The notes under the pieces: generated by a model
Told to the model about the DNA's origin: nothing
Seen by the model: the letters and a program-made list of their open reading frames with translations, nothing else
Database searches by the model: none
Program-made: the position numbers and the translations under genes
DNA from: a virus
Taxonomy: Duplodnaviria; Heunggongvirae; Uroviricota; Caudoviricetes
Length of the DNA: 58,025 nt
Reading direction: 5' to 3' (one strand)
IMG/VR virus record: IMGVR_UViG_2859821903_000003
Span: 1-58,025 of that record
Part shown: positions 1 through 48,897 of the stretch, piece by piece
Layout of the letters: the number at the start of each line of letters is the position of its first letter
Position numbering within the stretch: position 1 is the first letter of the stretch

Positions 1-1461
1 ATGAAAAAATTACTGCGTCTTTTTTTCCCGCTCTCGCTGCGGGTACGTTTTCTGTTGGCAACCGCTGCGGTAGTACTGGTGCTTTCGCTTGCCTACGGAA
101 TGGTCGCGCTGATCGGTTATAGCGTCAGTTTCGATAAAACTACGTTTCGGCTGTTACGTGGCGAGAGCAATCTGTTCTATACCCTTGCGAAGTGGGAAAA
201 CAATAAGTTGCATGTCGAGTTACCCGAAAATATCGACAAGCAAAGCCCCACCATGACGCTAATTTATGATGAGAACGGGCAGCTTTTATGGGCGCAACGT
301 GACGTGCCCTGGCTGATGAAGATGATCCAGCCTGACTGGCTGAAATCGAATGGTTTTCATGAAATTGAAGCGGATGTTAACGATACCAGCCTCTTGCTGA
401 GTGGAGATCATTCGATACAGCAACAGTTGCAGGAAGTGCGGGAAGATGATGACGACGCGGAGATGACCCACTCGGTGGCAGTAAACGTCTACCCGGCAAC
501 ATCGCGGATGCCAAAATTAACCATTGTGGTGGTGGATACCATTCCGGTGGAGCTAAAAAGTTCCTATATGGTCTGGAGCTGGTTTATCTATGTGCTCTCA
601 GCCAATCTGCTGTTAGTGATCCCGCTGCTGTGGGTCGCCGCCTGGTGGAGTTTACGCCCCATCGAAGCCCTGGCAAAAGAAGTCCGCGAACTGGAAGAAC
701 ATAACCGCGAATTGCTCAATCCAGCCACAACGCGAGAACTGACCAGTCTGGTACGAAACCTGAACCGATTGTTAAAAAGTGAACGCGAACGTTACGACAA
801 ATACCGTACGACGCTCACCGACCTGACCCATAGTCTGAAAACGCCACTGGCGGTGCTGCAAAGTACGCTGCGTTCTCTGCGTAGTGAAAAGATGAGCGTC
901 AGTGATGCTGAGCCGGTAATGCTGGAGCAAATCAGCCGCATTTCACAGCAAATTGGCTACTACCTGCATCGTGCCAGTATGCGCGGCGGGACATTGCTCA
1001 GCCGCGAGCTGCATCCGGTCGCCCCACTGCTGGACAATCTCACCTCAGCGCTGAACAAAGTGTATCAACGCAAAGGGGTCAATATCTCTCTCGATATTTC
1101 GCCAGAGATCAGCTTTGTCGGTGAGCAGAACGATTTTGTCGAGGTGATGGGCAACGTGCTGGATAATGCCTGTAAATATTGCCTCGAGTTTGTCGAAATT
1201 TCTGCAAGGCAAACCGACGAGCATCTCTATATTGTGGTCGAGGATGATGGCCCCGGTATTCCATTAAGCAAGCGAGAGGTCATTTTCGACCGTGGTCAAC
1301 GGGTTGATACTTTACGCCCTGGGCAAGGTGTAGGGCTGGCGGTAGCCCGCGAAATCACCGAGCAATATGAGGGTAAAATCGTCGCCGGAGAGAGCATGCT
1401 GGGCGGTGCGCGGATGGAGGTGATTTTTGGTCGCCAGCATTCTGCGCCGAAAGATGAATAA
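1..1461 (+). CDS. phoQ: Sensor histidine kinase PhoQ (complete, 486 aa)
   Basis: Full-length translation matches E. coli PhoQ from memory ([19 protein letters not shown]..., HAMP, histidine kinase and ATPase motifs). Confidence 0.95.
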
Positions 1462-2195
1462 ATATGTCCTTTTATCACCATATCAAGACAAACCATTGAT
1501 TTAATTAAATAATCTGCACTGAAAAAAGTGCCAAAAATCGCAAATTGACTACACCATTAACTACACCGTTCGGTGCACCGTATGAAACAACGTGGAACAA
1601 ATAGACACAAGAAATATACAGGCGGATCATCTTTCCAGGGGAAGCGCACCAATTCATGAGGGGCGTTAATGTCTATATGGGGATCCCCACCTACCGGAAT
1701 TTTTTTCCGGTTAAACGTTAATCAGGCTGGTGGGCTTTACCTGTTCGGTAGGTGTTATGATTATCGTAATACCTTTCCCCAATGGGGTAAAAGCATCAAC
1801 CGTAACGAAAGTCGTTATGGTTGCCACTGATACCCCCAATTTGGGTATCACGAGTAAGCCCCAAAATCTGGGTGTTACTCTTACTACCCAAACTACGGGT
1901 AGTTTCCGTAGTTTCATGGTCGAGTTGCAGATCTGCAACTCCCCCATTAACCACAGGCGAATTTCCGCCTTCGGTCATTCCTTAATCATCTGCGTAATCA
2001 TAATGATTATTCAGCAAGCGCAATTTTGCGCTTTGCTTAAAGTTCAGCGAGTTACCGCGCCGACTTCCTCAAATTGAGGTTTCCGAAAATATCAGCGGGT
2101 TAGCGATTAAGCTGATCATTAATTAAACTGCGAAAATGTCGTAGTTGTGAGGGGTGTAGCCAACCCATTTTTGGGCCGTCGGGAATATCAACCAG

Positions 2196-2477
2196 TTACC
2201 GCCGCAACCGCTCCGGCTTCTTCCAGTGGTACGTTATTTTCTCCTTCTCCCGATACATCTCCACGCGGCGACGGTAGGCCTGCAACTCAAGAACTCTGGT
2301 TCGTATGTTGCGCATATCCACGCCATTAAGTTCTATACCATCACGGCGCATCACCTCAGCAACAACACGCGCATAGTTTTCGGCTGTCACGCTGTCCGGC
2401 TGCGTGGCCTGTTCGTCAGCCTGCTGGCTGATTCCGGCAACGCGGCGGATTAATCCCGTTATTTCGGCTTCTGTCAT
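2196..2477 (-). CDS. Hypothetical protein (93 aa), last gene of packaging operon
   Basis: ORF directly downstream of TerL on the same strand; no recognisable motif. Confidence 0.35.
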   Translation of the reverse strand: MTEAEITGLIRRVAGISQQADEQATQPDSVTAENYARVVAEVMRRDGIELNGVDMRNIRTRVLELQAYRRRVEMYREKEKITYHWKKPERLRR

Positions 2478-2490
2478 GCTGCTGACCTCA

Positions 2491-4152
2491 TTACACCCCG
2501 CTAAATTCTTCCAGTTTCTGGCGGTGGCTGTCGCTTATATCAAAAGCAAAATCCTCATGCTCTGCCTGGAATGTACCAAACGCCATCAGCGCCGCCACGC
2601 TCGGGTCTATCTTGTTCGGTGATTTTTTCTTGTTCGGCTTGATATTGGCGTTCGCGTCACTCTGCATCACGACGTTACTCATCGACCAGGACAACACCGG
2701 ATCGCCACGATGCACAATCACCCTGCGGTTAACAAAAACTTCGAACGATTTCGCCGCCGGACTTAATCTGAGGTAGGTTTGCGGGAACGGCTCCACCTCA
2801 AAACCTGCCCCCTGTAATTGCGTTCTGAGATGCGTGGCGTTCCACGTATCAAAGCCCACCAGCCTGATATTAAATTTCTCCGCGTCCTGCATGATGTCAT
2901 CTCTGATCCGGTCGTAATCAATGCAGTCGCCAGGCGTTGTGCGTATCCAGCCTGCTTTAGCCCACTGACGATAGATGGCGCGGTTTTTATTGGCGGGGTT
3001 CTGTAGCTGGAACTCCGGCAGATAATGACGGGAAACCAGCATAATGGTTTTACCTACCGGAAAGGCATAGCACACGCTGGAAATATCGCTTGTGGATGAT
3101 AAATCCAGCCCCGCGTAACACTCCTAGCCGTGTAAATCTTCCTCCGTGAACGTTCCGGCACACTCAGCCCATGCGCCGTTACCCATCCACGGGGTAGTCC
3201 CCTGACACCAGATATTAAATCGCTTTGTCATCATCTCCACCCACTGCGACGGAATACCCCGCGCTTTCTGGATGGTTGAGGCCAGTTTTTCACGATCCAC
3301 GGAAACATCAATATTAGGGTTCGCCTTTATCCACATCGCCGGATCATCAACCTCGTTTTCGTCGTCCAGTTCGTAAATCAGTACAAAAATTGAATCGTTA
3401 ACCTCTTCGCCGTCCAGGATCTGGCAGCAATAATCATAGTGCTGCTTACAGGCTGAAACGACGTTGCTGCCTGATGTGGTAATGGCAAATAACAGCCCTT
3501 CGGGACGTGCGCCCATCCCCAGCTCAAGCGCGGAATAAACGCCGTTATCGGGGTGCAAGTGGTATTCGTCCACGATGGAAAGGCTGGGGTTTGTTCCCTC
3601 GATGGTTGCCGCTTTTGCTGCCAGCGGCTTTAACAGGCTGTTGCTTTTCGGGTGTATCACCTTATGCGCCTGAATATTCACCCGCCTGCGTAACGGTCGG
3701 GATAAAAGGCACATCTGACGCGCATCATCAAAGACGATCCGCGCCTGGTCACGGCTCACCGCTGCGGTGTAGATATCCTGCTGACCGTTCTCCATAATCA
3801 GAAACCAGTTAGCCAGAATCGCGGCGGTCGTTGATTTCGCATTTTTGCGCGGCACTTCGATAAAGGCGCTCGTATATTTGCGCCGTCCGGTGGCCTTAAC
3901 CTTAAAGCCGAGGATGCACGCAAAGGCGAACTGCTGCCACGGCTCCAGCTCAATGGGTCTGCCACGCATCGGCCCTTTTACGTGCGGGCACACCCTGGAA
4001 AAGGCAATAAACCGATCCACAACCTCACGATCGAACGTGTAAAGGGGGCTTTTAAGGTCTGAAAAGTACCGTTTAACGGCCTGTTTCAGCCGTTTACAGG
4101 CCGGAATTTTGCCCGTTTTTACGTCTTCTGCGTACTTATTCCAGGCGGTCAA
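2491..4152 (-). pseudogene. Terminase large subunit, interrupted by in-frame amber (TAG) at 3124-3126
   Basis: ORF 3124-4152 is the terminase ATPase-like N-terminal part and ORF 2491-3075 the nuclease-like C-terminal part; both are in the same frame, separated only by one TAG. Confidence 0.75.
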
Positions 4153-4492
4153 GCTCGTCCTCTTCTTCTGTTTCCGGTGGATTTTTACGGCGGCTTATCG
4201 GGTCAAAACCGAGCAAGGAGGCCATTTTTATCATCACTCTTTCCGCGTCGGATTTCGCGCTTAATGTGGGGTTTCTGCTCTCTCCGCCCTGACTGTTAAC
4301 AATGCTGAACCCGCGCGCCGCAAGGTCTGCGACGGCTTTCCGGTATATCGAGTAATTGACGCAATACAGTTCCAGATTGCTCCAGTCGGCGGGAGTCAGG
4401 TCACCCCGTTCCGCAAGCTGCCGCGATTTTTCCCGCCACTGCTTCACGGCGATATCATCCAGGTAGGCGGGGGCTTTCGGTGGTCTTGCCAT
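4136..4492 (-). CDS. Terminase small subunit (P27-family-like)
   Basis: 118 aa ORF overlapping the TerL start, located after the HNH gene; typical HNH-TerS-TerL arrangement. Confidence 0.65.
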   Translation of the reverse strand: MARPPKAPAYLDDIAVKQWREKSRQLAERGDLTPADWSNLELYCVNYSIYRKAVADLAARGFSIVNSQGGESRNPTLSAKSDAERVMIKMASLLGFDPISRRKNPPETEEEDELDRLE

Positions 4493-4781
4493 GCTTATTT
4501 TTTCGCCAGATTATTTTTCAAAAAATTCCCGTGCATAAAAATTTGAGGAGGCGGTCGGTGCCCGGCGGGGTCGGGTTTGTCCTGAAAACGCCCCCCACCC
4601 CGTCATACAGCCTCATCAGCGATTGCGGAAACATTCCATAACCTCGCGGTCACGGTCGGTTAATCGCTTCGCTGTGATGCGTTCTGCGCGTCCTGACGCT
4701 TTATCTTTATGCCCTGTTTCCTGTGTCTTCCATGCGTCACGCTGCCTTATAAGTCCACGGATAAGGCGGTTTTGTTCCCGC

Positions 4782-5222
4782 TCATTCATCAGCGTCATAC
4801 ATCCAGTTATTGCGGTTAGCGGCCCGTTCTTCCTCTTCACGAAATCCACCTGCGGCACGCTTACTTTTTGTTGCCGGATCAAGCCATTTCGTTTTCTGGT
4901 TATGGCACGCCTGACACAATGGTTGATGGTTCCATTCGGGCCAGAAGAGAACATCATCACCGCCATTAATCGGGATAATGTGATCCACCACCACGGCGGG
5001 CGTATATATCCCCTTCTCAAGGCATCGCACGCATAACGGGTTTTTACTCAGATACATGGCGCGGTATTTGTCCCACTGTCTGGAGTACCCACGCGCGCGG
5101 CGGTGTCCTCGTCTGGCATCCTCTGCACGCCATGCCGCCCGCCTGTGCTCCTCACACTTGCCGGACTTCACGCGCCTGTTACAGCCTGGTTCTGTGCATC
5201 GTCTTAATGGTTGCCACGGCAT
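4782..5222 (-). CDS. Phage-associated HNH endonuclease
   Basis: Motif DHIIPINGG...NHQPLCQACHNQKT; position next to the terminase genes as in cos-packaging phages. Confidence 0.75.
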   Translation of the reverse strand: MPWQPLRRCTEPGCNRRVKSGKCEEHRRAAWRAEDARRGHRRARGYSRQWDKYRAMYLSKNPLCVRCLEKGIYTPAVVVDHIIPINGGDDVLFWPEWNHQPLCQACHNQKTKWLDPATKSKRAAGGFREEEERAANRNNWMYDADE

Positions 5223-5518
5223 CAGTACACCCCCACATCACGGTAAGCCGTCCAGAGTACACCAATCGTCATGGGTACGCGTGTTTTTGCGTTATCCGCG
5301 ACAATCTGGCGATTTTCATACAGGTGAGCGATAAACATCATGCAGCCAATCTTTATGGCTGGCGTGAACTCCAGCCCGTCATCAAAGCGCCTGCCTATGT
5401 GTATCTGGCACGCCTCAAGCGATGCGGCAATGTATCCGCTGATTAACTGGTCTTCCTCGTCGCCATCGATGCGGCAATGGAGTTTCACTTCTTCCAGGGT
5501 GATAAGTTCTTCTGTCAT
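5222..5518 (-). CDS. Head-tail connector / DNA-packaging protein (gp6-like)
   Basis: 98 aa ORF in conserved position after the head-closure gene; translationally coupled. Confidence 0.45.
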   Translation of the reverse strand: MTEELITLEEVKLHCRIDGDEEDQLISGYIAASLEACQIHIGRRFDDGLEFTPAIKIGCMMFIAHLYENRQIVADNAKTRVPMTIGVLWTAYRDVGVY

Positions 5519-5895
5519 TTTTCCGCGCCCTCACGACAAAGAATTTCAAGGCGTGTCCTGGCGGCATCCGGCAGCGGCTGCCCGATGATATTCAGTACAC
5601 GCCCCGCCAGCGGCCCCGTATTGACCTTTATCCGGCTGGTGGCGTTGATGTCCTTCCTGTAGCGTATCCATACCCTTACCGTTCCAGTCGCCAGTTCTGC
5701 ACCCGATGAAATGGCCTCCTTGCTGCTGATCATGTTCACGCTTGCCCAGAGTGTGTGACCGTCCACCCACGTTTCGAGTATTTCGCCCGTCATGGCTCTG
5801 GTCTGTTTCAGGGTCTGAATCGTTACCCTGTCACGCAGTCGCCCTATGTTCATTCCGGTTTTTCTCCCTCGCTGATTTTTACTTCCTGTTTCCAT
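5515..5895 (-). CDS. Head closure / head-tail adaptor protein
   Basis: 126 aa ORF between portal and connector genes; family assignment by position and size. Confidence 0.45.
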   Translation of the reverse strand: METGSKNQRGRKTGMNIGRLRDRVTIQTLKQTRAMTGEILETWVDGHTLWASVNMISSKEAISSGAELATGTVRVWIRYRKDINATSRIKVNTGPLAGRVLNIIGQPLPDAARTRLEILCREGAEK

Positions 5896-7059
5896 GCCTG
5901 GCTGAACTCATCACCACCATCACGCGGGGACAGCCCTTCACGTTCGCGGGCTTCGTTCGGGCACATAACGCCGGATTTGATGCCGCGTTCATAGGTGGCA
6001 AAGCGTTCGCCAGGTGTGGCCCGTAACAGGTCCGCGCTGTCAAACTCCACCTGATACCGGATACCAGGTACAGGCGAGGCCACCAGCAGGGCGTTTTTTA
6101 TCTGCTTCTCAAAGTTCGCCAGCCACGGGCGCATCGTCATGGTGAGAAATGCGCGGCTTGCCTCGCTGAAATTGCTGTAGGTGCTGTTGCTGTATTCCTG
6201 CAAAAAAATCGGCGAGACGTTGAACATTCGGGCGATGTCTTCAATGGTGAAGCGACGGGAGGCCAGCCATTCAGCATCCTGATTACTCATGCCCAGCTGC
6301 TGATAGCTCATACCCCCTTCAAGGATGGGCGTTTTTCCGGCGTTTCTGGCCCCTTTGTAGCGTTCCAGCGCGGCTAATGCCTGTTTGCCCTTCACGCCGT
6401 CCAGCCATTCGCCTGACGTGATAACCCCTGCCGCCATCATGCCATCACGCATCACGCTCGCGCCGTGGCGTTGTTGGGCCAGCCCAAGCCCCAGCGATTC
6501 GCGGCAGATGGTTACAGGTGAGCGCCCCATAAAACCGTCATCCGTGGAGTAACGAAGGTGGAGAACCTCCCACGGTAAATAGTTGCGGGTGTTTCCGGTG
6601 TAGGCGTCAGTGATGCAGTAGCGCCAGTTATGCTCACCTGTCTGCTCAACGTTCACCGACTGCGGCGGGTAAGGATGCAAAGCGACCGGAAAACCATCAC
6701 GCCCCCACTGAATCACCGCATAAGCATTACCGTTTAACAGGCAGTGGCGGATCATCATTCGCTTAAACTGGTAGGGGGTTTGCCATGCGTTCGGGCGCTC
6801 GTTGAGGATGTGATCGACCGGATGAGAATCAAGCCACTCGCGGGCCTCCTTCCCCTTCTCATTGCGTACCAGGTACAGGTAACACGGCATGGTAGCCACC
6901 GCCTCAGAGATGACCGTCACGGCGTTCATGACGGCGGGCAGTGATTCCGCTGTCCCCGATGATACGTACTCACCCGCCCCGTGTTCGATGTGCCAGCCAG
7001 CGCCATAAACTCATCAAGCGTCATGCTGCGCTGCTCTTTTTTTCTTCTGAAAGGCCACA
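5850..7059 (-). pseudogene. HK97-family portal protein, probable frameshift near the 5' end
   Basis: ATG at 7059 is coupled to the protease stop and reads MWPFRRKKEQRSMTLDEF... for about 44 codons, then stops; the 359 aa portal-like body (6929 down to 5850) continues in another frame. Confidence 0.55.
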
Positions 7060-7061
7060 TA

Positions 7062-7634
7062 TCACACCCCCGCTAAATCCGCCCACCAGCGGCGATTATC
7101 CGCACGCGGCATTTTTTCGGGGTGCTGCTCATACAGGGAACGGCGGGCCAGCTCCACGTCGGAATCAGGGTAAGCCGGTACGGATGTAACGGTAATTTCG
7201 TACAGTTCCGCCACCAGCACGGTGCGCACGCATGGATCTGTTGTGGTATCCCATACATCCTTACGGGAACGAAAGCCAAAGCTCATGCCGGATATATCAC
7301 CTCGTTTAACCAGTTCGATAACGTCGCGCCCTGTACTGGTATCCGGTGGGGTCAGTTCAAAGCGTAACCCTGTTTCGTCCTCTTCCAGTTTCAGCGTGCC
7401 GGAACGGGTGCGCCCCAGTAACATGCTGTGGTCATGCTCATACAGGCCGCGAACGTCATTACCCGCCGCAAGCCATTCAGTAAACGCCCCCCGCTGGAAT
7501 TTTTCGTAAAACTCACCCCATAACAGTTCTGAAAGCTTATCCCAGCGAACAATGTAGCCCGTCAGCGTACCGGCTCCGCTGGTGGTGATTTCCGATGACC
7601 GGATTTCCATACTCTTCATAATTTTTTCACCCAT
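7062..7634 (-). CDS. Prohead maturation protease (HK97 family)
   Basis: 190 aa ORF between capsid and portal genes; size and position typical of S78-type prohead protease. Confidence 0.7.
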   Translation of the reverse strand: MGEKIMKSMEIRSSEITTSGAGTLTGYIVRWDKLSELLWGEFYEKFQRGAFTEWLAAGNDVRGLYEHDHSMLLGRTRSGTLKLEEDETGLRFELTPPDTSTGRDVIELVKRGDISGMSFGFRSRKDVWDTTTDPCVRTVLVAELYEITVTSVPAYPDSDVELARRSLYEQHPEKMPRADNRRWWADLAGV

Positions 7635-7672
7635 AAAACACTAAAGGGGCTTTTAAGCCCTTCTGTATGCTA

Positions 7673-8830
7673 TTAATCGTCGTCCTGTGGCAGTTCCAGA
7701 ATCTTGATCGCGTTCGAATCCACCACGCCACCGCCTAAATATTTCTGCGCGAAAATTTTGATGAAGCCCGGCTCTGTGAGGTTGTCCGGTCTGGTGCGAA
7801 CACCTGTTTCGTGATCAACAATGTAGTAACCGCGTTTGAAGTCACCCAGGGCAATAACGTTATCCGGCATAAACTCCAGATATTCGACCGGAAGGCCCAG
7901 CAACGTATCAGGATCACCCGCCTGTAAACGGTCACGCCAGATGTAATCACCGTTCGCGTTCTTCACCTTCTGGAGTTTTGCCTCCGTCGTGGAGTTAACC
8001 ACCCAGACCGCGTTTTTGCGGTATTTTTTACGTAATGCAAATTTCAGGTCGATCAGCGGGTCCGCAGATGTCCACGCCAGAGATTCGGAAGGTTTAATTA
8101 CCTGCAACGTACCAAAATCACGCTCTTTGTCGTTCTTCTCTGCACGGGGTACGGATAAAAAGCCTTTTGCTTTTTTGTCACCGTCGCCCACAACCAGATC
8201 GCTTTCTTCGGTTTCCGTGAAGGTGTCGCCAATCTCGCCCGTCAGCCATGAAAGGATGTCCACATCGGAAAAATCCACGATTTCCTGCGTGGTGCGCGGG
8301 TACGCATAGACCGGATACAGCTTAATGCTCACCTCGTTAATCTGCGGGGTGCTGGTCTGTTCGCGTGCCTTACCCTCTTCACCGTGGTTAACGGTCGCAC
8401 CGCCAGCGGAAACAAGCTGCTTAAACTCGTTGCTGCTGATTTTCTTCACGGTACAGATGCGGCGCATGGTGGATTCATCCGTCAGCATTCGCATGATTTC
8501 GGTGTTCAGTTCGGGGATAACGGTATAACCACCATCAGCGGGAACGCCTGTACTCAATGCGCGGGTTTCACCTGTCAGAATGTAGTGACGTAGTTCGGCG
8601 GGGTCAGTGGTCTGGCTGTTTTTGCCTGGTTTACTGCGCTCTTCGTCAGCAACGGCCTCAAGGCGGGAGATGTCTTTATCGAGTGATTCAGCTTTAGCGC
8701 GTAATTCGTCAAATTTTGCGCCCTCAGCATCGTTAAGGCTGCGGTTTTCTTTTTCCGCGTTCTCCAGCATGTCGCGCATCTGATTTTTAATGGCGGTTTT
8801 CTGCTGGCGTAATTCGATTATTCTCGGCAT
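7673..8830 (-). CDS. Major capsid protein (HK97 fold family); start probably MPRIIELRQQ
   Basis: About 385 aa with N-terminal coiled-coil delta domain then capsid-like body; first gene of the head operon. Confidence 0.75.
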   Translation of the reverse strand: MPRIIELRQQKTAIKNQMRDMLENAEKENRSLNDAEGAKFDELRAKAESLDKDISRLEAVADEERSKPGKNSQTTDPAELRHYILTGETRALSTGVPADGGYTVIPELNTEIMRMLTDESTMRRICTVKKISSNEFKQLVSAGGATVNHGEEGKAREQTSTPQINEVSIKLYPVYAYPRTTQEIVDFSDVDILSWLTGEIGDTFTETEESDLVVGDGDKKAKGFLSVPRAEKNDKERDFGTLQVIKPSESLAWTSADPLIDLKFALRKKYRKNAVWVVNSTTEAKLQKVKNANGDYIWRDRLQAGDPDTLLGLPVEYLEFMPDNVIALGDFKRGYYIVDHETGVRTRPDNLTEPGFIKIFAQKYLGGGVVDSNAIKILELPQDDD

Positions 8831-9042
8831 AAAAAAAGTCCTGCAGTTAAGTAAGGAACTCCAGGACGCGGCAAACACTCAACCGTTTTTCATAAGGAAA
8901 TCAGCAATCGCACCGATCGTTTTCCCGCCTGGTAATGAATATTGGCGAGCACATTAACAGGCGGGAAAGTGGCCCCAGCGTCCTGGCACCACGGGCGAGA
9001 ATAATCATGATTCAGTTCGGGTAAAATATGCCGATCCGGTCA

Positions 9043-9072
9043 GCGAACAACGTGGAACAACCACGAACAAAT
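9043..9072 (-). promoter_or_regulatory. Array of 10-bp-phased TTGTTC hexamers upstream of the capsid operon
   Basis: Minus-strand reading TTGTTCGTGGTTGTTCCACGTTGTTC; related arrays at 1584-1611, 14425-14478 and 15811-15838. Confidence 0.45.
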
Positions 9073-9117
9073 AATTTACAAAACATGACAAAAAGCCGGA
9101 TTGCTCCGGCTGTGTGA

Positions 9118-9399
9118 TTATCTGTCCTGGTAATTTCGCCATATTTCATCACCAGCACCATCCATACCCATTTCGGCATAAGTGCGATCGACCGCCTTTT
9201 TCAGGTCTCCGTAATTATCCGGCGGCTCCGGTGGCCTCTGTGCCTTCCTGGAACATTCCAGCCGTCGCATCGTGATGTGATGCCGTTCCTTGTCTGTCTC
9301 CACCAGTTGCATGACTTCACCCCATCGCGCCGACGCTCTCCGGTAAAAGCCTTTCGCCTCCAGTTCTTCCGCTATGCGGTCATGTACCATCGTCCCCAC
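9118..9399 (-). CDS. PerC-family-like transcriptional regulator (tentative)
   Basis: 93 aa; segment AEELEAKGFYRRASARWGEVM resembles the PerC/Pch family as I recall it; not verified. Confidence 0.4.
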   Translation of the reverse strand: MGTMVHDRIAEELEAKGFYRRASARWGEVMQLVETDKERHHITMRRLECSRKAQRPPEPPDNYGDLKKAVDRTYAEMGMDGAGDEIWRNYQDR

Positions 9400-9402
9400 C
9401 CC

Positions 9403-9813
9403 TCAGAACGGAATATCATCACCGTAAGGGTCATCGCCTCCCGCTGGTGGCTGATTACCCTGTGTGCCTGTGGTCTTGCGTCGGCTCCCACCAGGACGTG
9501 CCGCACGGGCACTGATTACGCTGTCTGCAATAACCTGATAACCCTGCCGCGTTTCCCCGTTCTGTCCGGTCCACTGGCTGACCTGCATCGTGCCGGATAC
9601 GCTGGCAACGTCGCCTTTTTGATGTTTAGCCAGGAAGTCGGCCTGCTTACCAAATGCGATGACCGATAGCCATAACGTCGCCTGTCCATCCTGAGCCTGG
9701 CTGCATGGCAGCGATACCGCCATACGCGCCAGCGTCATCGGTGTACCCTTGCTGGTCTGTTTTACCTGCGGGTCGTCCACCAGCCGCCCGTAAGCTGCAA
9801 TTTGTGCTGTCAT
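9403..9813 (-). CDS. ssb: Single-stranded DNA-binding protein
   Basis: OB-fold-like N-terminus, Gly/Pro-rich linker and acidic C-terminal tail ending DDIPF. Confidence 0.8.
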   Translation of the reverse strand: MTAQIAAYGRLVDDPQVKQTSKGTPMTLARMAVSLPCSQAQDGQATLWLSVIAFGKQADFLAKHQKGDVASVSGTMQVSQWTGQNGETRQGYQVIADSVISARAARPGGSRRKTTGTQGNQPPAGGDDPYGDDIPF

Positions 9814-9822
9814 ATTGCCACC

Positions 9823-10128
9823 TCAGTGAAGCGATCCGGCGTTGTTCTTTTTCATCTCTTCCATCATTTTTTCAGTGAGCATTACGCACTGAAAACCCAT
9901 GTTTTTGATGTCCACGGGCTTCATGCCTTTATCAGTGGATATCACAGGAAGAATATCCTGATACACATCGCGGTCAGGGTAACTAAGCACACAAAGCGCC
10001 CATGATGCCACGGGTGAGGATCCTTCGTCTGTTTCAACCCACCAGCCTGGTGTAGCTGCGCTTATTTGCTGAATCGTGATCCGTCCGTTGTGCTTGTAAA
10101 GTTTTTCACCAAATTTTGGTTCGCTCAT
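9823..10128 (-). CDS. Hypothetical island protein (101 aa)
   Basis: ORF in the replication-proximal operon; no motif recognised. Confidence 0.35.
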   Translation of the reverse strand: MSEPKFGEKLYKHNGRITIQQISAATPGWWVETDEGSSPVASWALCVLSYPDRDVYQDILPVISTDKGMKPVDIKNMGFQCVMLTEKMMEEMKKNNAGSLH

Positions 10129-10406
10129 GATTCCAACTCTCCGGTTTTAACGTTGATTGTTGTTACCTGTTCCGCTTCGGCAATCTCCCGTTCTGTCAGC
10201 GTGGCAAAGTTTGCCGCCGCCGTGGTCATGAATGCGCTTATCAGGTCGGGATGTTCCTTCGCGTATCCTTCCCGCGTGTGGCGGTCTATCGTTCTGATTG
10301 CCACCTTTAAGGTGTGCTCAGTCATGTCTAACGCTTTATATTTTGGCTCTGTTCTGTCTCTGCGTTTTTGGGTCATTTCTCGCAACCTCTCACTTTTTCG
10401 CCTCAC
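10125..10406 (-). CDS. Hypothetical island protein (start uncertain, possibly the internal Met at 10325)
   Basis: ORF whose 5' portion overlaps the iteron array. Confidence 0.3.
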   Translation of the reverse strand: MRRKSERLREMTQKRRDRTEPKYKALDMTEHTLKVAIRTIDRHTREGYAKEHPDLISAFMTTAAANFATLTEREIAEAEQVTTINVKTGELES

Positions 10407-10578
10407 TTTTTCAAGCGTCTCACTTCGTCGCAGTTGGGATTTTCGGTTTTTCTATGTGTATGTTTCATAAGTATTTTTTTACCCCTCACTTTTGAGGATG
10501 TATACAGGTCGAAAAGTGAGGGGGAGCGGGCTAATTTTGGCCCTCTTTCTATCCCCTCGCTTTTGCTCCTCACTTTTA
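10379..10578. repeat. Iteron array, CTCACTTTT-type repeats (at least 6 copies, one inverted); candidate island origin of replication
   Basis: Copies at 10379, 10393, 10410, 10486, 10570, a CTCGCTTTT variant at 10553 and an inverted copy at 10511-10524, immediately 3' of the replication gene. Confidence 0.5.
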
Positions 10579-11976
10579 TAGCGGCGCTACATCATCCCCA
10601 TCGATACGAATAACCCCATCTTTTTCCAGCTTGTACAGCCAGCGCCGGAAGTTTTTCATTTCATACCCCAGCTTTTTCATGTCATCACGTAACATCTGGA
10701 TCGTGCACTTGTCGCCGTTCTGTGTGCGTGAACGGATGCACCCCCATAGCGCGGTATGGTTTTCCGTCTTGTTCCCTGCCTCCTCGATGCGCTCCAGTTC
10801 AACAGGAGGGCGCGGATCATCCACCACCACCAGCGACGTGATTAATTCACCGTCAGCGTCGGTAAAAAGCTCCACCACGCGTAAGTCATATGCGGCTTCT
10901 TTGAGTTCCTCCGCGTCCTTCATTTTGGTGCATGAGATAACCAGCGCTTCGCTTCCTGCGTCCTCCCTGCGTATCCGGTATTCAGCATCCAGCGAAGCAC
11001 GAAATGCACTGGAACCGCGCGCGCCTTTCGTCTCATCCTTGCCGGAATGGTGAACCACCAGCACCGTGGCCCCTGTGCGTCGTTTCAGTTCGTCACAACC
11101 ACGGATAAACGCCCCCATATCACGGGAATCATTTTCATCATTCCCACCAAAGCAACGCGCCAGCGTATCCAGAATAATCATGCGTACAGGTTTACCCGTT
11201 TCCCGCTCCACCTGACGGGCAGCGATAACCATTTCATCAACATCAAGCGGGGCAGCCGGAAAGATGGGGCGGTTTACCAGATACAGATTTTTCACCTGCT
11301 CATCGTGCACAACCTCCCAGGCTTTTACACGACGCGGAACACCTATACCGCCTTCACCAACCACATAGAGAACCGCACCATGTGCAACCCTGCGGCCTCC
11401 CCACTGGCGACCAGTGGCAACATGGCACGCCCACGATCCGGCAAGGAATGATTTATAGGACCCGCTAGCCCCGTATATGCTGCATAGCGATACCGCCGGA
11501 ATAATCCCCTTAACCACGTAATCCAGTTGCGTGTCGTATCCGGTAGATCCAACGCTCATCGGTAGCGTGGTTTTTCGCTGGTGGTTTTTTTCTTCCGCCG
11601 GCTCTTTCCCGCGCACCCGTTCCAGGTATTCGCGCCAGTTCTCCCGCATATGGCTGTGCATCCCTTCGGGGTAATAATTCGCATCAGTTACACCCGCCGC
11701 CGCCAGCTTGTGCGCAATGGCATTAATATTTGATGGCCTGATGTGGCCTGCCTTGTACAGCCGGACACAATAGCGCCCCTCGTCGATGATTCTCAGGTCT
11801 GCCAGTTCATCCAGTTGATCATCAGCCAGCACAACGGGAGGCACATTATCGCCAGCCAGTCGCCCGTCCTGTTCCTGCCACTGTTTCGCATGTGCCCAGG
11901 CATCACTACCCGCAAAAATAATGGCTTCGGTCATCTTGTCGTAAGGCTGTTTTTTTAAGTTCGGTGCGCTTTTCAT
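10576..11976 (-). CDS. Replication protein, RecA-like/AAA helicase family
   Basis: 466 aa; Walker A GASGSYKS, Walker B-like LVVHHSGKDE; adjacent to iterons. Confidence 0.65.
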   Translation of the reverse strand: MKSAPNLKKQPYDKMTEAIIFAGSDAWAHAKQWQEQDGRLAGDNVPPVVLADDQLDELADLRIIDEGRYCVRLYKAGHIRPSNINAIAHKLAAAGVTDANYYPEGMHSHMRENWREYLERVRGKEPAEEKNHQRKTTLPMSVGSTGYDTQLDYVVKGIIPAVSLCSIYGASGSYKSFLAGSWACHVATGRQWGGRRVAHGAVLYVVGEGGIGVPRRVKAWEVVHDEQVKNLYLVNRPIFPAAPLDVDEMVIAARQVERETGKPVRMIILDTLARCFGGNDENDSRDMGAFIRGCDELKRRTGATVLVVHHSGKDETKGARGSSAFRASLDAEYRIRREDAGSEALVISCTKMKDAEELKEAAYDLRVVELFTDADGELITSLVVVDDPRPPVELERIEEAGNKTENHTALWGCIRSRTQNGDKCTIQMLRDDMKKLGYEMKNFRRWLYKLEKDGVIRIDGDDVAPL

Positions 11977-12272
11977 TTCTTGCCCCTGAATCCGTTAATC
12001 ATGGTTTTCAGCTTCTGGATGTTTGCCCGTGCCCTGGCGTTGCTGGTGGGCACGTTATGCGGCGCGGTCTGTACCAGAGAAAAATCACGCCGGAACTGAT
12101 AAACAGGCATCACGCAATCATATTCGTAACCTTCACGGCGGTAGGTTACGCGCCGTTCTTCCACGCCCTTAATCATTACCGTGCCGCCGTAATGGTCGCG
12201 GTAAATATCACCGCGCGTAAATTTAGGGTGAGTGTTGCCACTGGCAGTTAAGCCAGAATATTTAAGTTTCAT
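11973..12272 (-). CDS. Hypothetical island protein (99 aa)
   Basis: ORF coupled to the replication gene start. Confidence 0.35.
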   Translation of the reverse strand: MKLKYSGLTASGNTHPKFTRGDIYRDHYGGTVMIKGVEERRVTYRREGYEYDCVMPVYQFRRDFSLVQTAPHNVPTSNARARANIQKLKTMINGFRGKK

Positions 12273-12277
12273 TATTT

Positions 12278-12523
12278 TTATTCTCCGGTGTGCTGTTCTT
12301 TATATCCGTCGTGCAATAGATCTATTTCTTGCAGTTCCATTATTACAGGCTCAAGAAGCGTTATTAATGCCGTGGCAATTCTTGATTTTTGTTTGTCGCG
12401 TTCATTGTCGCCAAGTGTTTCAAGCCATATGCGCAATATTTCCAGCATGTTTTCACTGTGAGAAAGTGCAAGAAATGCGCGGTCTATTGTTTCGTGGTAA
12501 ATATCACGCATATTAATCCCCAT
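12278..12523 (-). CDS. Hypothetical island protein (81 aa)
   Basis: ORF in the leftward early operon. Confidence 0.35.
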   Translation of the reverse strand: MGINMRDIYHETIDRAFLALSHSENMLEILRIWLETLGDNERDKQKSRIATALITLLEPVIMELQEIDLLHDGYKEQHTGE

Positions 12524-12725
12524 CCGTCGTTTTTCTTAAAATAACCTCTGTCACGAAATCAGCATAATCGGCGGCGATATTCAGTACATCAAGCCCGTTG
12601 ATTTATATTCTCTCGTGGAAAGTAAGAAAAAAGCCGCTCTAATAAGTTCTGGCATTGACGAAAGCGCATCAGCCGCACCATCAGGAACGCCGGAAAATTC
12701 CTGTTTCAGGGAATTAAAACGATCA

Positions 12726-12989
12726 TCACGCATAACCCCCCCCATTTTCACAATCGGCAACAAGAATATTTTTAGCGTCATTCAGTGACCGCGTTGCGAT
12801 GTATCGGATACATTCCAGGGCGAACTGTGTCCGGTCTTTCTGTTCTTCTCCCTGCGCAAGCTCTGCCGTGCATTCAATATCAATAAGCGCGTGCATCAGC
12901 GTAGTGAGCGCGGCGGCTGCTGCGTCCGGTGTGGTTTTATTGTGCATAGGTTTCTCCCTGGCGGATTTTTGCAGCGAATACAGCAACAC
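12726..12989 (-). CDS. Hypothetical island protein
   Basis: ORF in the leftward early operon; start uncertain. Confidence 0.25.
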   Translation of the reverse strand: MLLYSLQKSAREKPMHNKTTPDAAAAALTTLMHALIDIECTAELAQGEEQKDRTQFALECIRYIATRSLNDAKNILVADCENGGGYA

Positions 12990-13140
12990 AACCGGACGGG
13001 CAACGGCTACGCGCTTCGCGTTCCGTCCAGGCGGTTACGTGGATGATTTGAGATTCTCCGGCACTCAGGGCCAGAAAACGCCACACAAAGGCCGTTTGTG
13101 TGTGTACAAGGTGTGGTATATGATTTACGGCAACCATAAC
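12937..13140 (-). CDS. Hypothetical first gene of leftward operon (start taken as MVAVNH)
   Basis: The longer ORF would overlap the operator palindromes, so the internal start is preferred. Confidence 0.25.
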   Translation of the reverse strand, partial: VMVAVNHIPHLVHTQTAFVWRFLALSAGESQIIHVTAWTEREARSRCPSGCVAVFAAKIRQGETYAQ

Positions 13141-13227
13141 GGCTCCTAGTTTACGTTGTTGGTTAGAAGCCCTGCGAGTGGTAATGACACTTGCGGGGCT
13201 TTGCTTTTTTAAGTGCTCTTGTGTTAA

Positions 13228-13272
13228 GGTGGCCACCTAACAATGGAAAGGCTAATTCAATAGGTGGCCACT
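13228..13272. promoter_or_regulatory. Twin palindromic operators AGGTGGCCAC (13228-13237 and 13263-13272) in a divergent control region
   Basis: Two copies of a 10-bp palindrome with 35 bp centre-to-centre spacing, between the divergent leftward operon and the RHH gene. Confidence 0.5.
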
Positions 13273-13331
13273 TGTCAACAATCAAACGCGATAAAAGCCC
13301 TAAAGGGGACGGGCAATCCCCACAATTCAGA

Positions 13332-13463
13332 ATGCGAATTTCTCCAGAGCTAAAAGAGCAATTCGACAAAGAAGCACAGAGCGACGGCATAAGCCTAGCC
13401 AACTGGCTTAAAGAGTTGGGGCGCACTGAACTAAAGCGGCGCGGCATAGAACCCAAAGGATAA
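13332..13463 (+). CDS. Small ribbon-helix-helix (Arc/CopG-like) DNA-binding protein, candidate island repressor
   Basis: 43 aa from MRISPELKEQFDKEAQSDGISLANWLKELGR; RHH-like pattern; divergent from the replication operon. Confidence 0.4.
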   Translation: MRISPELKEQFDKEAQSDGISLANWLKELGRTELKRRGIEPKG

Positions 13464-13505
13464 AAACTATCAGCGCCGTGGTGTGAGGTATTACGGCGCA
13501 TTGCT

Positions 13506-13694
13506 ATGCAGGACAACACAATGACCGATAAAGAATTGACCAAAACATTATCACCGGCACGGAAAAGACGGCGCAGAAAGATAGAGCATGAATCAGAAAG
13601 ATTCGCGCCATGTGCTTTTGCCCTTGAGCAATTCCTTAAAGAGTATAGGGAAAAGCGCTCATTGCAGGTATGGCAACGAACTGAACCAGACTGA
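13506..13694 (+). CDS. Hypothetical small basic protein
   Basis: 62 aa ORF downstream of the RHH gene on the same strand; terminator follows. Confidence 0.25.
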   Translation: MQDNTMTDKELTKTLSPARKRRRRKIEHESERFAPCAFALEQFLKEYREKRSLQVWQRTEPD

Positions 13695-13789
13695 TTGCAT
13701 TGCCCACCAGCCTGATAGCGGCTATCATCCCCGTGCTTATGTTTGGGATCACATACACATAAGGCGCAGCGGGTTATCTGTTCAGAAAG

Positions 13790-13817
13790 GCGGCTCCATT
13801 TCGGGGCCGCTTTTTTT
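13790..13817 (+). terminator. Rho-independent terminator of the rightward RHH transcript
   Basis: GCGGC stem / 11-nt loop / GCCGC followed by T7. Confidence 0.5.
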
Positions 13818-13963
13818 ATGCCTGAAAAACCCCAATTTTGTGGTTTTCCAGTCTCACCAGGGCGAACAAATCCCCGCCCACGTTCTGGCGTATATTCAAT
13901 CTTCATGGTTATAGCTCTGTGTTCAGATGATTGATGTGTGGCGGCTGCGTGCCGCCAGCGTGA

Positions 13964-14152
13964 TTAATGAACTGCCTTGCAGCTATCCTTCCAGGCCAGA
14001 ACCTCGGATAAAGACCAGCCAACGGAACGACCGCCAAGTTTACGACGTGATGGGAATTGTCCGGCCTTTTCCAGGCGGTAGCGACACGTACGGCTAAGGC
14101 CGGTTAGTTTTTCGCATTCTTTTTCACGTATAAACCGATCAGTGCTTAACAC
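13964..14152 (-). CDS. alpA: AlpA-family phage transcriptional regulator / excisionase-like protein
   Basis: 62 aa; LSRTCRYRLEKAGQFPSRRKLGGRSVGWSLSEVLAW matches the AlpA pattern; next to int. Confidence 0.75.
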   Translation of the reverse strand: MLSTDRFIREKECEKLTGLSRTCRYRLEKAGQFPSRRKLGGRSVGWSLSEVLAWKDSCKAVH

Positions 14153-14424
14153 TATTGCCCCCTTTCGTTTCTTAAAGAGTCATCAGGTGTCTTATTGTGT
14201 CGTATTGTTCCCGCTAGAGTGATGAATGGCAAATACTGAGGATGTATGATTTACAGAAAATGAAAAAGTAAGAATAAAATCTTTTAAATTCATGTTAATA
14301 CAAAGGCATAAAATATTGTTCCATGCCTTTTTTCTCGCTCTTTAAAGAGTGATTCGCTAGTGTATAAAAAACCAGTAACACATTAAAAATCAGCTACTTA
14401 TAAATCCGTACGCTTTTTCGCCTC

Positions 14425-14478
14425 TTGTTCGTAGTTGTTCCACATTGTTGCTCATTGTTGCACGTTGTATCTGTTCGC
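14425..14478 (+). promoter_or_regulatory. Array of five or more 10-bp-phased TTGTTC/TTGTTG hexamers between int and alpA
   Basis: TTGTTCGTAGTTGTTCCACATTGTTGCTCATTGTTGCACGTTGTAT in AT-rich intergenic DNA upstream of alpA. Confidence 0.45.
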
Positions 14479-14516
14479 ATATCCAGTATGCGCATACTGA
14501 AAAAACACGAAAAAAA

Positions 14517-15746: not shown

Positions 15747-15995
15747 GTTTTACCCCCTCTTTACGAAAAAGTGACTACACCAGTGACTACACCGATCGTT
15801 GCACAAAGGGCTACAACGTGAAACAAGCTGGAACAAGGAAAATCACAAATCTGTTGATAATCAAAAACATAATGCACAACCTGAAACATTATGAAACGGC
15901 AAAAAACACTAATTGATAAAATATGCCCATACTTCACGCATTACGTTAAGCATCCGTTATAATCGGTTGCAGATACCAGCCTGTGGATGCTTAAC

Positions 15996-48570: not shown

Positions 48571-48897
48571 ATGACTAAAAATACTCGTTTTTCCCCCGAA
48601 GTCCGTCAGAGGGCGATTCGTATGGTTCTGGAAAGTCAGGGCGAATATGACTCACAGTGGGCGGCAATTTGTTCCATTGCCCCAAAGATTGGCTGTACAC
48701 CGGAGACTCTGCGTGTCTGGGTACGCCAGCATGAGCGGGATACCGGAGGCGGTGATGGAGGGCTCACCACCGCTGAACGTCAGCGTCTGAAAGAGCTGGA
48801 GCGTGAAAATCGTGAACTGCGCCGCAGTAACGATATCCTTCGCCAGGCTTCCGCTTATTTTGCGAAGGCGGAGTTCGACCGCCTCTGGAAAAAATGA
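48571..48897 (+). CDS. IS629 OrfA
   Basis: 108 aa [31 protein letters not shown]…. Confidence 0.9.

What the first reader, a model, noticed from the sequence alone, without database searches (positions are those of the whole stretch)
1680..2100. Repeat-rich, highly symmetric non-coding segment at the distal end of the island
The segment contains a perfect 20-bp palindrome GAGTTGCAGATCTGCAACTC (1922-1941), four spaced mini-hairpins of the form CCCCAA-n-GGGT (1776-1900), GGGGATCCCC and a tandem GTAGTTTC repeat. ORFs predicted here look like repeat artefacts. It occupies the accessory position after TerL and could be a structured RNA, a packaging site or a protein-binding array.
Basis: seen in the sequence. 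Interest (0 to 1): 0.5.

Follow-up and report, generated by a model that had tools for sequence, protein, structure and literature searches.

The report
Hairpin-and-IHF-site array ending a phage satellite
The segment is a real, non-coding run of about a dozen short DNA palindromes, IHF-type binding motifs and a Chi site at the far end of a capsid-forming phage satellite, and its function has not been described or tested.

Summary
Window 1680-2100 (really ~1610-2202) folds far better than shuffles on both strands (z about -10). In the 58-kb window only a hok/sok locus folds better.

It is the non-coding, integrase-distal end of a capsid-forming PICI (EcCIEDL933/CP-933C family) inserted between phoQ and roxA. 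It lies after TerL and a 93-aa ORF and before the attachment site.

It matches no Rfam family and shows no coding signal. It is not the cos site (upstream of terS), not the origin (~10.4-10.6 kb) and not the att core or arm (1460-1567).

It is a mosaic of three things:
- Three decaying tandem units of an IHF-consensus motif beside a short hairpin. The motif abuts the operon's last stop codon, and in Xenorhabdus and Providencia relatives it abuts the TerL stop.
- A 123-bp four-hairpin module (1824-1946) found with the same borders in about 40 island contexts and as conserved as TerL DNA.
- Further hairpins and an invariant Chi site.

Stems change with compensation, but no strand bias separates RNA from DNA function.

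My best reading, at modest confidence, is a REP/BIME(RIP)-like insulator at the 3' flank of the packaging operon. Function is untested.

The parts
1460..1466 (.). Attachment-site core (AAATATG), left junction of the island. The second copy is at 15919-15925, in front of roxA.
   Evidence: K-12 reads ...GAATAAATATGCCCATAC... with nothing between phoQ and roxA. The window has the island between the two copies.
1489..1501 (-). Perfect IHF consensus (AATCAATGGTTTG) between the att core and the arm repeats. Probably part of attP.
   Evidence: The O157 and Shigella islands have a perfect consensus site on the same strand at the matching offset from phoQ.
1544..1567 (+). Arm-type direct repeats (ATTAACTACACC x2). 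They are matched by GTGACTACACC x2 at 15772-15795, next to int.
1678..1711 (.). GGGGATCCCC (a truncated longer palindrome) and the hairpin ACCGGAATTTTTTTCCGGT.
1726..1733 (+). Chi site GCTGGTGG inside an invariant stretch (GTTAATCAGGCTGGTGGG).
1750..1823 (.). Three hairpins: 1750-1775, 1777-1787 (CCCCAATGGGG) and 1797-1823 (CAACCGTAACGAAAGTCGTTATGGTTG).
   Evidence: The O157 variant of the third hairpin keeps pairing through G.T.
1824..1946 (.). 123-bp four-hairpin module. It comprises GATACCC-N7-GGGTATC, AGTAAGCCCC-N5-TGGGTGTTACT, CTACCC-N7-GGGTAG (alternative hairpin 1890-1914), and the 20-bp palindrome with an outer TGG/CCA stem. Positions 1831-1901 are also one long imperfect palindrome.
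   Evidence: The same borders occur in 42 distinct flank contexts at 87-95% identity. The consensus structure has 35 pairs, 2 of them with compensatory changes. It is as conserved as TerL DNA. Self-reverse-complement match by nhmmer.
1955..2012 (.). Hairpin GGCGAATTTCCGCC, and the unit TTAATCATCTGCGT + TAATCATAATGATTA + TTCAG.
   Evidence: Compensated variant TGGTCATCATGACCA in L089.
2016..2058 (.). Unit 3: hairpin AAGCGCAATTTTGCGCTT plus a decayed motif copy (AAGTTCAGCGAGTTACCGC).
   Evidence: (D2, D3). Compensated variant AGCTCAATTTTGAGCT.
2062..2106 (.). Unit 2: hairpin CCTCAAATTGAGG plus the motif AATATCAGCGGGTTAGCGA.
   Evidence: Compensated variants CCTGCATTGCAGG and CCCCCAATGGGGG.
2163..2202 (.). 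Unit 1: hairpin ACCCATTTTTGGGC plus a perfect IHF consensus, TATCAACCAGTTA (2186-2198). On the - strand it reads TAACTGGTTGATA, and its TAA is the stop codon of the 93-aa ORF.
2196..2477 (-). Last ORF of the packaging operon (93 aa, PHROG 1561, unknown function). The array starts at its stop codon.

Best explanation
The segment is the non-coding 3' flank of the late (capsid/terminase) operon of a capsid-forming PICI. It works like an island-specific REP/BIME (RIP-type) array.

Shown:
- It is a mosaic of short palindromic modules.
- One module type is a unit made of an IHF-consensus motif next to a short hairpin. The stem sequence of that hairpin varies freely but stays paired.
- The first unit begins at the stop codon of the last ORF.
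- Units are tandemly duplicated and decaying.
- A 123-bp four-hairpin module and a Chi site are conserved across islands whose flanks are otherwise unrelated.

Inferred:
- The operon's transcript (the minus strand of the window) runs through the array and folds into a string of stem-loops.
- These stem-loops would protect the mRNA 3' end and damp read-through. Read-through would otherwise run into attP and int in the excised or concatemeric form, and run antisense into phoQ in the integrated form.
- On the DNA, IHF would bind and bend the motif copies.
- The conserved modules, together with Chi, would provide homology for swapping the accessory genes that sit between TerL and the array.
For: Context:
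- The island lies between phoQ and roxA.
- The gene order matches annotated relatives.
- The O157 island at the same site matches the published location and description of CP-933C/OI-51, a 14.93-kb cryptic prophage beside phoQ (PMC3378721).

Hairpin excess.

The motif:
- GCGGTAACTNGNTGATATT occurs 3 times in 2040-2202, against 0.08 expected.
- The O157 island has 4 perfect WATCAANNNNTTR sites in one orientation within 400 bp.
- Across 80 TerL-related loci from many genera, the perfect consensus occurs at 1.0 per kb in the first 500 bp after TerL, against 0.09 per kb upstream.
- In 15 of the 80 loci (14 Xenorhabdus, 1 Providencia), TAAC/T-N3-TTGAT abuts the TerL stop codon. In many of them a hairpin follows, then an inverted second copy about 48 bp on.
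- The four N positions vary while ATCA and TTA are kept.

Hairpin maintenance: compensated stem changes appear in at least five hairpins.

Module conservation: 87-93% identity, against 89-91% for TerL DNA and 79-84% for the 93-aa ORF, with unalignable flanks.

Topology: in a virion-derived relative the order is TerL, accessory genes, att region, int, all on one strand.

Other points:
- No canonical terminator lies inside the array. The only terminator-like site on the operon strand beyond the ORF is at 1516-1531.
- Wobble-compatible mismatches lean to the operon's sense strand, 36 against 21.
- Chi is present in this non-coding end in most islands.
Against: - There are no transcript data, so the 3'-UTR reading is an inference.
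- The wobble bias is weak, and most mismatches (82 of 139) are not wobble on either strand. Selection on RNA pairing is therefore not demonstrated, and a DNA-level role fits equally well.
- None of the hairpins matches the REP consensus.
- The elements are not dispersed in the chromosome: there are 1-6 places per genome, and those looked at lie at ends of cf-PICI-like islands.
- Some relatives lack the features. L002 has no IHF consensus in this region. The Klebsiella island L152 ends in ordinary intrinsic terminators. The O157 island lacks the 123-bp module. No single element is therefore indispensable to the family.
- IHF binding rests on a consensus match only.
- Apparent compensation in short palindromes can also arise without selection, by template-switch correction of quasi-palindromes.
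Confidence: 0.35

Rival explanations
1. A purely DNA-level nucleoprotein array. IHF, and possibly a structure-recognising partner acting on the AT-centred palindromes, would assemble a bent complex at this end of the island. That complex would serve excision or integration, replication or concatemer handling, rather than the RNA.
For: - The IHF consensus is conserved in position across genera.
- The palindromes are near-perfect, with A(n)T(m) centres.
- There is no strand bias.
- Chi is conserved in the same stretch.
- A second IHF site and the arm repeats of attP lie only 100-600 bp away.
Against: - The motif copies lie 570-730 bp from the att core, which is far for an intasome.
- The origin and cos are elsewhere.
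- The stems have no common sequence for a specific binder.
- The number and order of units differ widely between functional relatives.
Confidence: 0.22
2. Largely neutral debris. The hairpins and motif copies would be left-over 3' ends (stop codon plus stem-loop) of accessory genes that were gained and lost at this hotspot, multiplied by slippage and kept palindromic by template-switch repair.
For: - The tandem copies decay: perfect CGACCTCCTCAAATTGAGGAGGTCG in O157 against imperfect copies here.
- Copy number and module order vary.
- GGGGATCCCC is a deletion remnant.
- Accessory genes after TerL differ between islands.
- Some islands have none of it.
Against: - The 123-bp module is as conserved as TerL coding DNA, with changes concentrated in loops.
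- The motif keeps its position at the last stop codon from E. coli to Xenorhabdus, although the surrounding DNA is unalignable.
- The Chi-containing stretch is invariant.
Confidence: 0.2
3. A discrete structured non-coding RNA (the 123-bp module, or a longer transcript on either strand) with a trans or cis regulatory role in the satellite's life cycle.
For: - Folding is as strong as in hok/sok.
- The module has sharp, constant borders and four conserved hairpins with variable loops.
- It occurs as an independent unit, sometimes twice per island.
Against: - There is no Rfam match even at E = 10 or below.
- No promoter-like or terminator-like signal flanks the module, and its flanks differ between contexts.
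- Only 2 of 35 pairs covary, and the sequences are too similar to test further.
- The module is absent from the O157 island at the same phoQ site.
- nhmmer finds it in no other genus.
Confidence: 0.13
4. Miniature mobile palindromic elements (MITE-, Correia- or REPIN-like) that insert in non-coding DNA of these islands.
For: - The Xenorhabdus units look like inverted terminal motifs (TAAC-N3-TTGAT ... ATCAA-N3-GTTA) around a hairpin, in tandem.
- Similar AT-centred hairpins sit at a different place, between cos and terS, in Pasteurellaceae islands.
- The 123-bp module has sharp borders and can be duplicated around a foreign ori-like cassette.
- A 25-nt identity to the palindrome lies inside an unrelated KilA-N gene.
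Against: - No consistent target-site duplication or terminal inverted repeats bound the 123-bp module.
- There are only 1-6 places per E. coli genome, and those looked at lie at ends of cf-PICI-like islands.
- No transposase is associated.
Confidence: 0.1

Closest known systems
REP/BIME clusters of E. coli, especially BIME-1/RIP (repetitive IHF-binding palindromic) elements
   Same: Both are extragenic clusters of short imperfect palindromes placed just 3' of genes, with an IHF consensus between palindromes. Both are arranged in tandem or mosaic arrays, and both are compatible with RNA-level (3'-end protection) and DNA-level (IHF) roles.
   Different: - No REP consensus (GCCKGATG...CATCMGGC) is present.
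- The stems here have no common sequence, whereas REP stems are conserved.
- The copies seen are confined to one type of mobile island, at 1-6 places per genome, instead of hundreds dispersed.
- No RAYT transposase link is known.
IHF sites of lambda-type attP and cosB
   Same: Both have a WATCAANNNNTTR consensus on a temperate mobile element near its recombination and packaging functions. This island also has a conventional att-arm IHF site (1489-1501).
   Different: The array copies are 570-730 bp from the att core and about 2.3 kb from cos. They are tandemly repeated, each is paired with a hairpin, and the first overlaps a stop codon.
Correia/NEMIS and ERIC miniature elements
   Same: Both are short palindromic elements. 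Correia elements carry an IHF site, are co-transcribed with neighbouring genes, and fold into processed RNA hairpins that modulate mRNA stability.
   Different: No terminal inverted repeats or target duplication were found for the 123-bp module, and there is no genome-wide dispersal.
Integron attC arrays
   Same: In both, imperfect palindromes of variable sequence begin at or over the stop codon of exchangeable accessory genes and can stack in arrays. The Vibrio repeats are of similar length, about 123 bp (from memory).
   Different: There is no IntI integrase. The RYYYAAC/GTTRRRY core sites are not consistently present, as judged by eye on the copies. There are no cassette ORFs between most copies.
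Stem-loop stabilisers and retroregulators at phage operon ends (e.g. lambda sib)
   Same: Both are hairpins beyond the last gene and next to the attachment site, so what lies downstream of them differs between the integrated and excised states.
   Different: sib is one RNase III hairpin downstream of int. Here there are a dozen hairpins that lie upstream of int in the excised form and always stay attached to the late operon.

Membership tests
REP/BIME (RIP) elements | Palindromic units with the REP consensus (GCCKGATG...CATCMGGC, foot GTAG/CTAC) | tested here: not met
   No match to six REP consensus fragments in 1400-2300.
REP/BIME (RIP) elements | Extragenic clusters of imperfect palindromes 3' of genes, with an IHF consensus between palindromes (RIP type) | tested here: met
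   Hairpin clusters. IHF consensus next to hairpins. The array starts at an ORF stop codon.
REP/BIME (RIP) elements | High copy number dispersed around the chromosome | tested here: not met
   1-6 places per E. coli genome. Those looked at lie at ends of cf-PICI-like islands.
cos packaging site of the island | Adjacent to terS, conserved wherever the terminase is conserved, and corresponding to virion DNA ends | tested here: not met
   That description fits window ~4500-4600 instead. A virion-derived relative's record starts 22 nt before terS. The finding region shares no DNA with other genera, and its module is missing from the O157 island.
Replication origin (iteron type) | Clustered iterons flanking an AT-rich stretch next to the rep/helicase gene | tested here: not met
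   The AAGTGAGG iterons cluster at 10387-10575. Only one similar 8-mer lies in the region, at 2147.
attP of a tyrosine integrase | Core shared with attB, arm-type direct repeats on both sides, and an IHF site between core and arm | tested here: met
   Met for 1460-1567 only: core AAATATG, IHF consensus 1489-1501, arm repeats 1544-1567 and 15772-15795. The finding's 1680-2100 lies outside this.
Any curated RNA family (Rfam 15) | Covariance-model score at or near the gathering threshold | tested here: not met
   Best hits are 12-17 bits, against thresholds of 33-56. Nothing in the region in the whole-window gathering scan.
Intrinsic terminators | GC-rich stem followed by a T run | tested here: not met
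   Two terminator-like sites in 1300-2700, no more than in shuffles, and neither inside 1680-2100.
Protein-coding gene or type I toxin | An ORF kept across relatives with synonymous-biased change, or a family match | tested here: not met
   - No Pfam hit for four ORFs.
- A 7-nt and an 11-nt indel, and a 1-nt deletion, break the frames in relatives.
- Changes in the module are mostly non-synonymous in both open frames.
IHF-binding site | Sequence consensus WATCAANNNNTTR, with variable N positions | tested here: met
IHF-binding site | Actual binding and bending by IHF | not testable with these tools
   Needs EMSA, footprinting or ChIP.
MITE-like element | Terminal inverted repeats, target-site duplication, and copies at unrelated loci | tested here: inconclusive
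   The Xenorhabdus units are bounded by inverted motifs. The 123-bp module has no TIR or TSD. Genome-wide counts in Xenorhabdus were not possible.

The most novel reading that the evidence does not exclude
The 'IHF motif + free-stem hairpin' unit at the last stop codon, together with the 123-bp four-hairpin module, could be a dedicated cis-acting element of capsid-forming PICIs and not a REP-like by-product. One possibility is an IHF-organised nucleoprotein or RNA structure that sets the end of the packaging operon and separates it from int in the excised form. Another is a defined recombination cassette border through which these satellites exchange accessory (defence) genes.
Probability: 0.15. 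Interest if true: 0.7.

Novelty: new variant of a known kind. Interest (0 to 1): 0.45.

Why it matters
Capsid-forming PICIs are a recently recognised and much-studied class of phage satellites that spread between species. The cf-PICI papers I searched say nothing about this non-coding end.

If the array controls the end of the packaging operon or organises IHF, it would be a cis element that must be kept when engineering or delivering these islands. It would also be a case of REP/RIP-like architecture evolving privately on a mobile element.

If instead it marks the border of the accessory-gene hotspot, it would help explain how satellites swap cargo. It would also give a sequence handle (the 123-bp module, or the stop-codon motif) for finding island ends in genomes.

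If it is debris, the finding is only a useful landmark.

Tried and rejected
- Rfam, permissive and gathering scans: nothing.
- tRNA/tmRNA scan: none in the region.
- Phage database, DNA level: no match.
- cos site: rejected. The conserved cos block is upstream of terS.
- Origin or P4-crr-like second iteron cluster: rejected.
- Operator for an island regulator: the palindrome and GATACCC-N7-GGGTATC each occur once in the window.
- Coding or type I toxin: rejected. RefSeq's occasional 52-aa 'hypothetical protein' over the module is most likely a palindrome artefact.
- REP consensus: absent.
- Integron attC, Xer/dif, Fur box, Ter/Tus, lambda boxB and CRISPR-repeat (RNA anti-CRISPR) resemblances were considered by eye. 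All were dropped, because the similarity was limited to a few bases or was not kept across copies.
- Strand assignment from G.T versus A.C mismatches: inconclusive.
- Distant homologues of the 123-bp module in other genera by nhmmer: none. Deep covariation could therefore not be tested.
- Literature: no paper found on this region. Searches and reads for cf-PICI, EcCIEDL933, CP-933C and BIME/IHF were.

Full report
**Where it is.**
- Window 1-1461 is phoQ, and roxA starts at 15987.
- In K-12 the two genes are separated by about 75 bp. Here about 14.45 kb is inserted between two copies of AAATATG, at 1460-1466 and 15919-15925.
- Read on the minus strand, the insert carries int (14517-15746), a RepA-type helicase, major capsid (7673-8878), protease, portal (5850-6929), HNH (4782-5222), TerS (4136-4492, Pfam Terminase_4), TerL (2491-4152) and a 93-aa ORF (2196-2477).
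- The window's TerL is split by a stop near 3075-3124.
- Annotated relatives have the same gene order.
- This is the layout of capsid-forming PICIs, whose prototype is EcCIEDL933.
- The O157 island at this site (L003) matches the published location and description of CP-933C/OI-51/Sp7, a 14.93-kb cryptic prophage beside phoQ (PMC3378721).
- The finding is therefore the non-coding stretch between the last ORF of the packaging operon and the attachment site.

- All named elements are at the stated coordinates.
- The stretch 1670-2110 folds with z = -10.6 on the + strand and -10.1 on the - strand against dinucleotide shuffles.
- Perfect hairpins are at least three times denser than in any other 500-bp bin of the first 16 kb.
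- Of 524 GC-corrected windows, only one region folds better, and it is a hok/sok locus recognised by Rfam.
- The two strands fold equally well, so the signal is one of DNA palindromes rather than of a single RNA strand.

**What it is not.**
- It matches no Rfam family and contains no tRNA.
- It has no excess of sigma-70 promoters or intrinsic terminators.
- It is not coding. Four ORFs have no Pfam match, relatives carry frame-breaking indels, and the differences are mostly non-synonymous.
- It is not cos.
  - A block upstream of terS is conserved from Escherichia to Pasteurellaceae: GGGGTGGGGG..GTTTTCAGGAC ... CCCCCTCAAATTTTTACGCACGG.GATTTTTTTGAAAATAA. In the window it lies at ~4500-4600.
  - A Klebsiella cf-PICI sequenced from induced particles is deposited as a linear record that starts 22 nt before terS and ends in that block.
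- It is not the origin. The iterons (AAGTGAGG) cluster at 10387-10575, next to the helicase gene.
- The att apparatus occupies only 1460-1567: the core, a perfect IHF consensus at 1489-1501, and arm repeats at 1544-1567 that are mirrored at 15772-15795.

**Anatomy: the repeated unit.** The region is a mosaic of modules with sharp borders.
- Between 2016 and 2202 there are three tandem, decaying copies of a unit. Each has a short hairpin followed, on the + strand, by AATATCARCNNGTTAVC.
- The best copy, TATCAACCAGTTA at 2186-2198, is a perfect IHF consensus (WATCAANNNNTTR).
- On the operon strand that copy reads TAACTGGTTGATA, and its TAA is the stop codon of the 93-aa ORF.
- The motif occurs 3 times here, against 0.08 expected in the whole window.
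- The O157 island has four perfect and two near-perfect copies, all in one orientation, within 400 bp.

**Anatomy: the 123-bp module.**
- Window 1824-1946 recurs with the same borders in 42 distinct flank contexts among 67 viral-contig loci and E. coli genomes, sometimes twice per island.
- It folds into four hairpins, and its most variable part is the 7-nt loop of the first one.
- Its identity to divergent islands (87-93%) equals that of TerL DNA (89-91%) and exceeds that of the 93-aa ORF (79-84%). The DNA on either side is unalignable.

**Anatomy: the remaining elements.**
- The rest consists of other hairpins and a Chi site at 1726-1733, inside an invariant stretch.

**Conservation beyond E. 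coli.**
- Eighty loci encoding TerL relatives (68-99% identity) from Enterobacterales and Pasteurellales were fetched. Only Shigella shares DNA with this region, and nhmmer finds the 123-bp module nowhere else.
- The motif nevertheless persists.
  - The perfect IHF consensus is about ten times denser in the first 500 bp after TerL than upstream.
  - In 15 loci (14 Xenorhabdus, 1 Providencia), TAAC/T-N3-TTGAT abuts the TerL stop codon.
  - In many of them a hairpin of unrelated sequence follows, then an inverted second copy about 48 bp on, sometimes as two tandem units.
- Hairpin density after TerL is raised in many genera.
- In Pasteurellaceae islands, AT-centred hairpins of the same type sit between cos and terS instead. 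One, ACGCAAAATTGCGT, is the reverse complement of a hairpin found in E. coli islands, and another is CCTCAAATTTGAGG.
- Not all relatives have the features. A Klebsiella island ends in ordinary terminators, and L002 has no IHF consensus here.

**Are the hairpins maintained?** Homologous hairpins differ by paired changes:

| Form here | Compensated variant |
|---|---|
| AGCGCAATTTTGCGCT | AGCTCAATTTTGAGCT |
| TAATCATAATGATTA | TGGTCATCATGACCA |
| CCTCAAATTGAGG | CCTGCATTGCAGG or CCCCCAATGGGGG |
| TGATACCC..GGGTATCA | CGATACCC..GGGTATCG |
| GATACCC..GGGTATC | GATCCCC..GGGGATC (uncompensated intermediates exist) |

- Pairing, not sequence, is therefore what is kept.
- Mismatches do not reveal a strand. 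In 91 distinct imperfect hairpins, 21 are G.T on the + strand, 36 are A.C (which is wobble on the operon strand), and 82 are neither.
- Template-switch repair of quasi-palindromes could mimic compensation without selection.

**Mechanism.**
- In the excised or packaged form the order is TerL, accessory genes, this array, attP, int, all on one strand. In the integrated form the array faces the 3' end of phoQ.
- No canonical terminator lies between the ORF stop and a weak one at 1516-1531.
- I therefore read the array as the structured 3' flank of the packaging operon.
  - Its stem-loops would protect the mRNA end and damp read-through.
  - IHF would be bound to the motif copies on the DNA.
  - The conserved module plus Chi would offer homology for exchanging the variable genes between TerL and the array.
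- This is how REP/BIME, and in particular RIP, elements are thought to work. Membership in that family nevertheless fails on the REP consensus and on copy number.
- What is shown is the anatomy, the conservation and the exclusions. Transcription, IHF binding and any effect on expression or transfer are inferred.
- The rivals cannot be excluded with sequence alone: a DNA-only nucleoprotein array, neutral debris of a gene-turnover hotspot, a discrete ncRNA, and miniature mobile elements.

**Novelty and score.**
- Neither cf-PICI preprint read with term searches mentions non-coding, intergenic or sRNA features, and the CP-933C paper likewise does not mention this region.
- The architecture resembles known extragenic palindrome and IHF arrays, so I rate it a new variant of a known kind.
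- I give it moderate interest. It is real, conserved, and sits on a topical element, but it has no demonstrated function.

Noticed in passing
window 1475-15925 (Chi at + 1726, 5635, 7578, 9443, 11577, 12042; - 2856, 6080, 7083, 7211, 9777, 10039, 10827, 11055, 13704, 14855): Chi (GCTGGTGG) is the single most frequent 8-mer of the island. There are 16 copies in 14.45 kb, against 0.4 expected (Markov-1) and 12 in the other 43.6 kb of the window. The next most frequent 8-mer has 8 copies. This suggests selection for RecBCD protection or recombination of this cos-packaged satellite. In other island types a Chi also abuts the 123-bp module.
   Followed up: partly
window 2491-4152 (-): The island's TerL is split into two ORFs (2491-3075 and 3124-4152) by a stop, whereas relatives have one 553-aa ORF. 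This copy may be packaging-defective.
   Followed up: no
L100 1066-1378 (island next to hpt): An ori-like cassette lies between two copies of the 123-bp module. It has three direct GCGGGTTA iterons, an AT-rich stretch and three inverted copies. These iterons differ from the AAGTGAGG type at this window's own origin.
   Followed up: partly
L094 5503-5527: The 20-bp palindrome plus flanking bases (25-nt identity, CGAGTTGCAGATCTGCAACTCGCC) lies inside the coding sequence of a KilA-N domain protein (...TELQICNSPEE...) on an unrelated 50-kb viral contig. Similarity does not extend beyond the palindrome. Unexplained.
   Followed up: partly
window ~4500-4600 (-): A non-coding block upstream of terS is conserved from Escherichia to Pasteurellaceae cf-PICIs: GGGGTGGGGG..GTTTTCAGGAC...CCCCCTCAAATTTTTACGCACGG.GATTTTTTTGAAAATAA. 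It is presumably the cos site.
   Followed up: partly
window 1582-1600, ~9040-9070, ~14430-14470, 15810-15835: A motif, GAAACAA..TGGAACAA (or GTTGTTCCAC on the other strand), recurs at both island ends, upstream of the capsid operon and downstream of int. It may be a regulator (AlpA/Xis-type) site.
   Followed up: no
window 43030-43205 (-); 34196-34312, 43540-43656, 48852-48968 (+); 20897-21095 (-); 37374-37564 (-); 37641-37890 (-): Rfam and ARAGORN hits elsewhere in the window: a sok antitoxin RNA (hok/sok), three ALIL pseudoknots (an IS3-type frameshift signal), IS009, STnc100, and a tRNA-Met/Arg/Arg cluster. Together these point to a second prophage and IS copies downstream of the island.
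   Followed up: no
L153 1558-1716 (NZ_CP027371.1): RefSeq annotates a 52-aa 'hypothetical protein' (WP_001364204.1) directly over the 123-bp module. It is most likely a spurious ORF created by the palindromes.
   Followed up: partly
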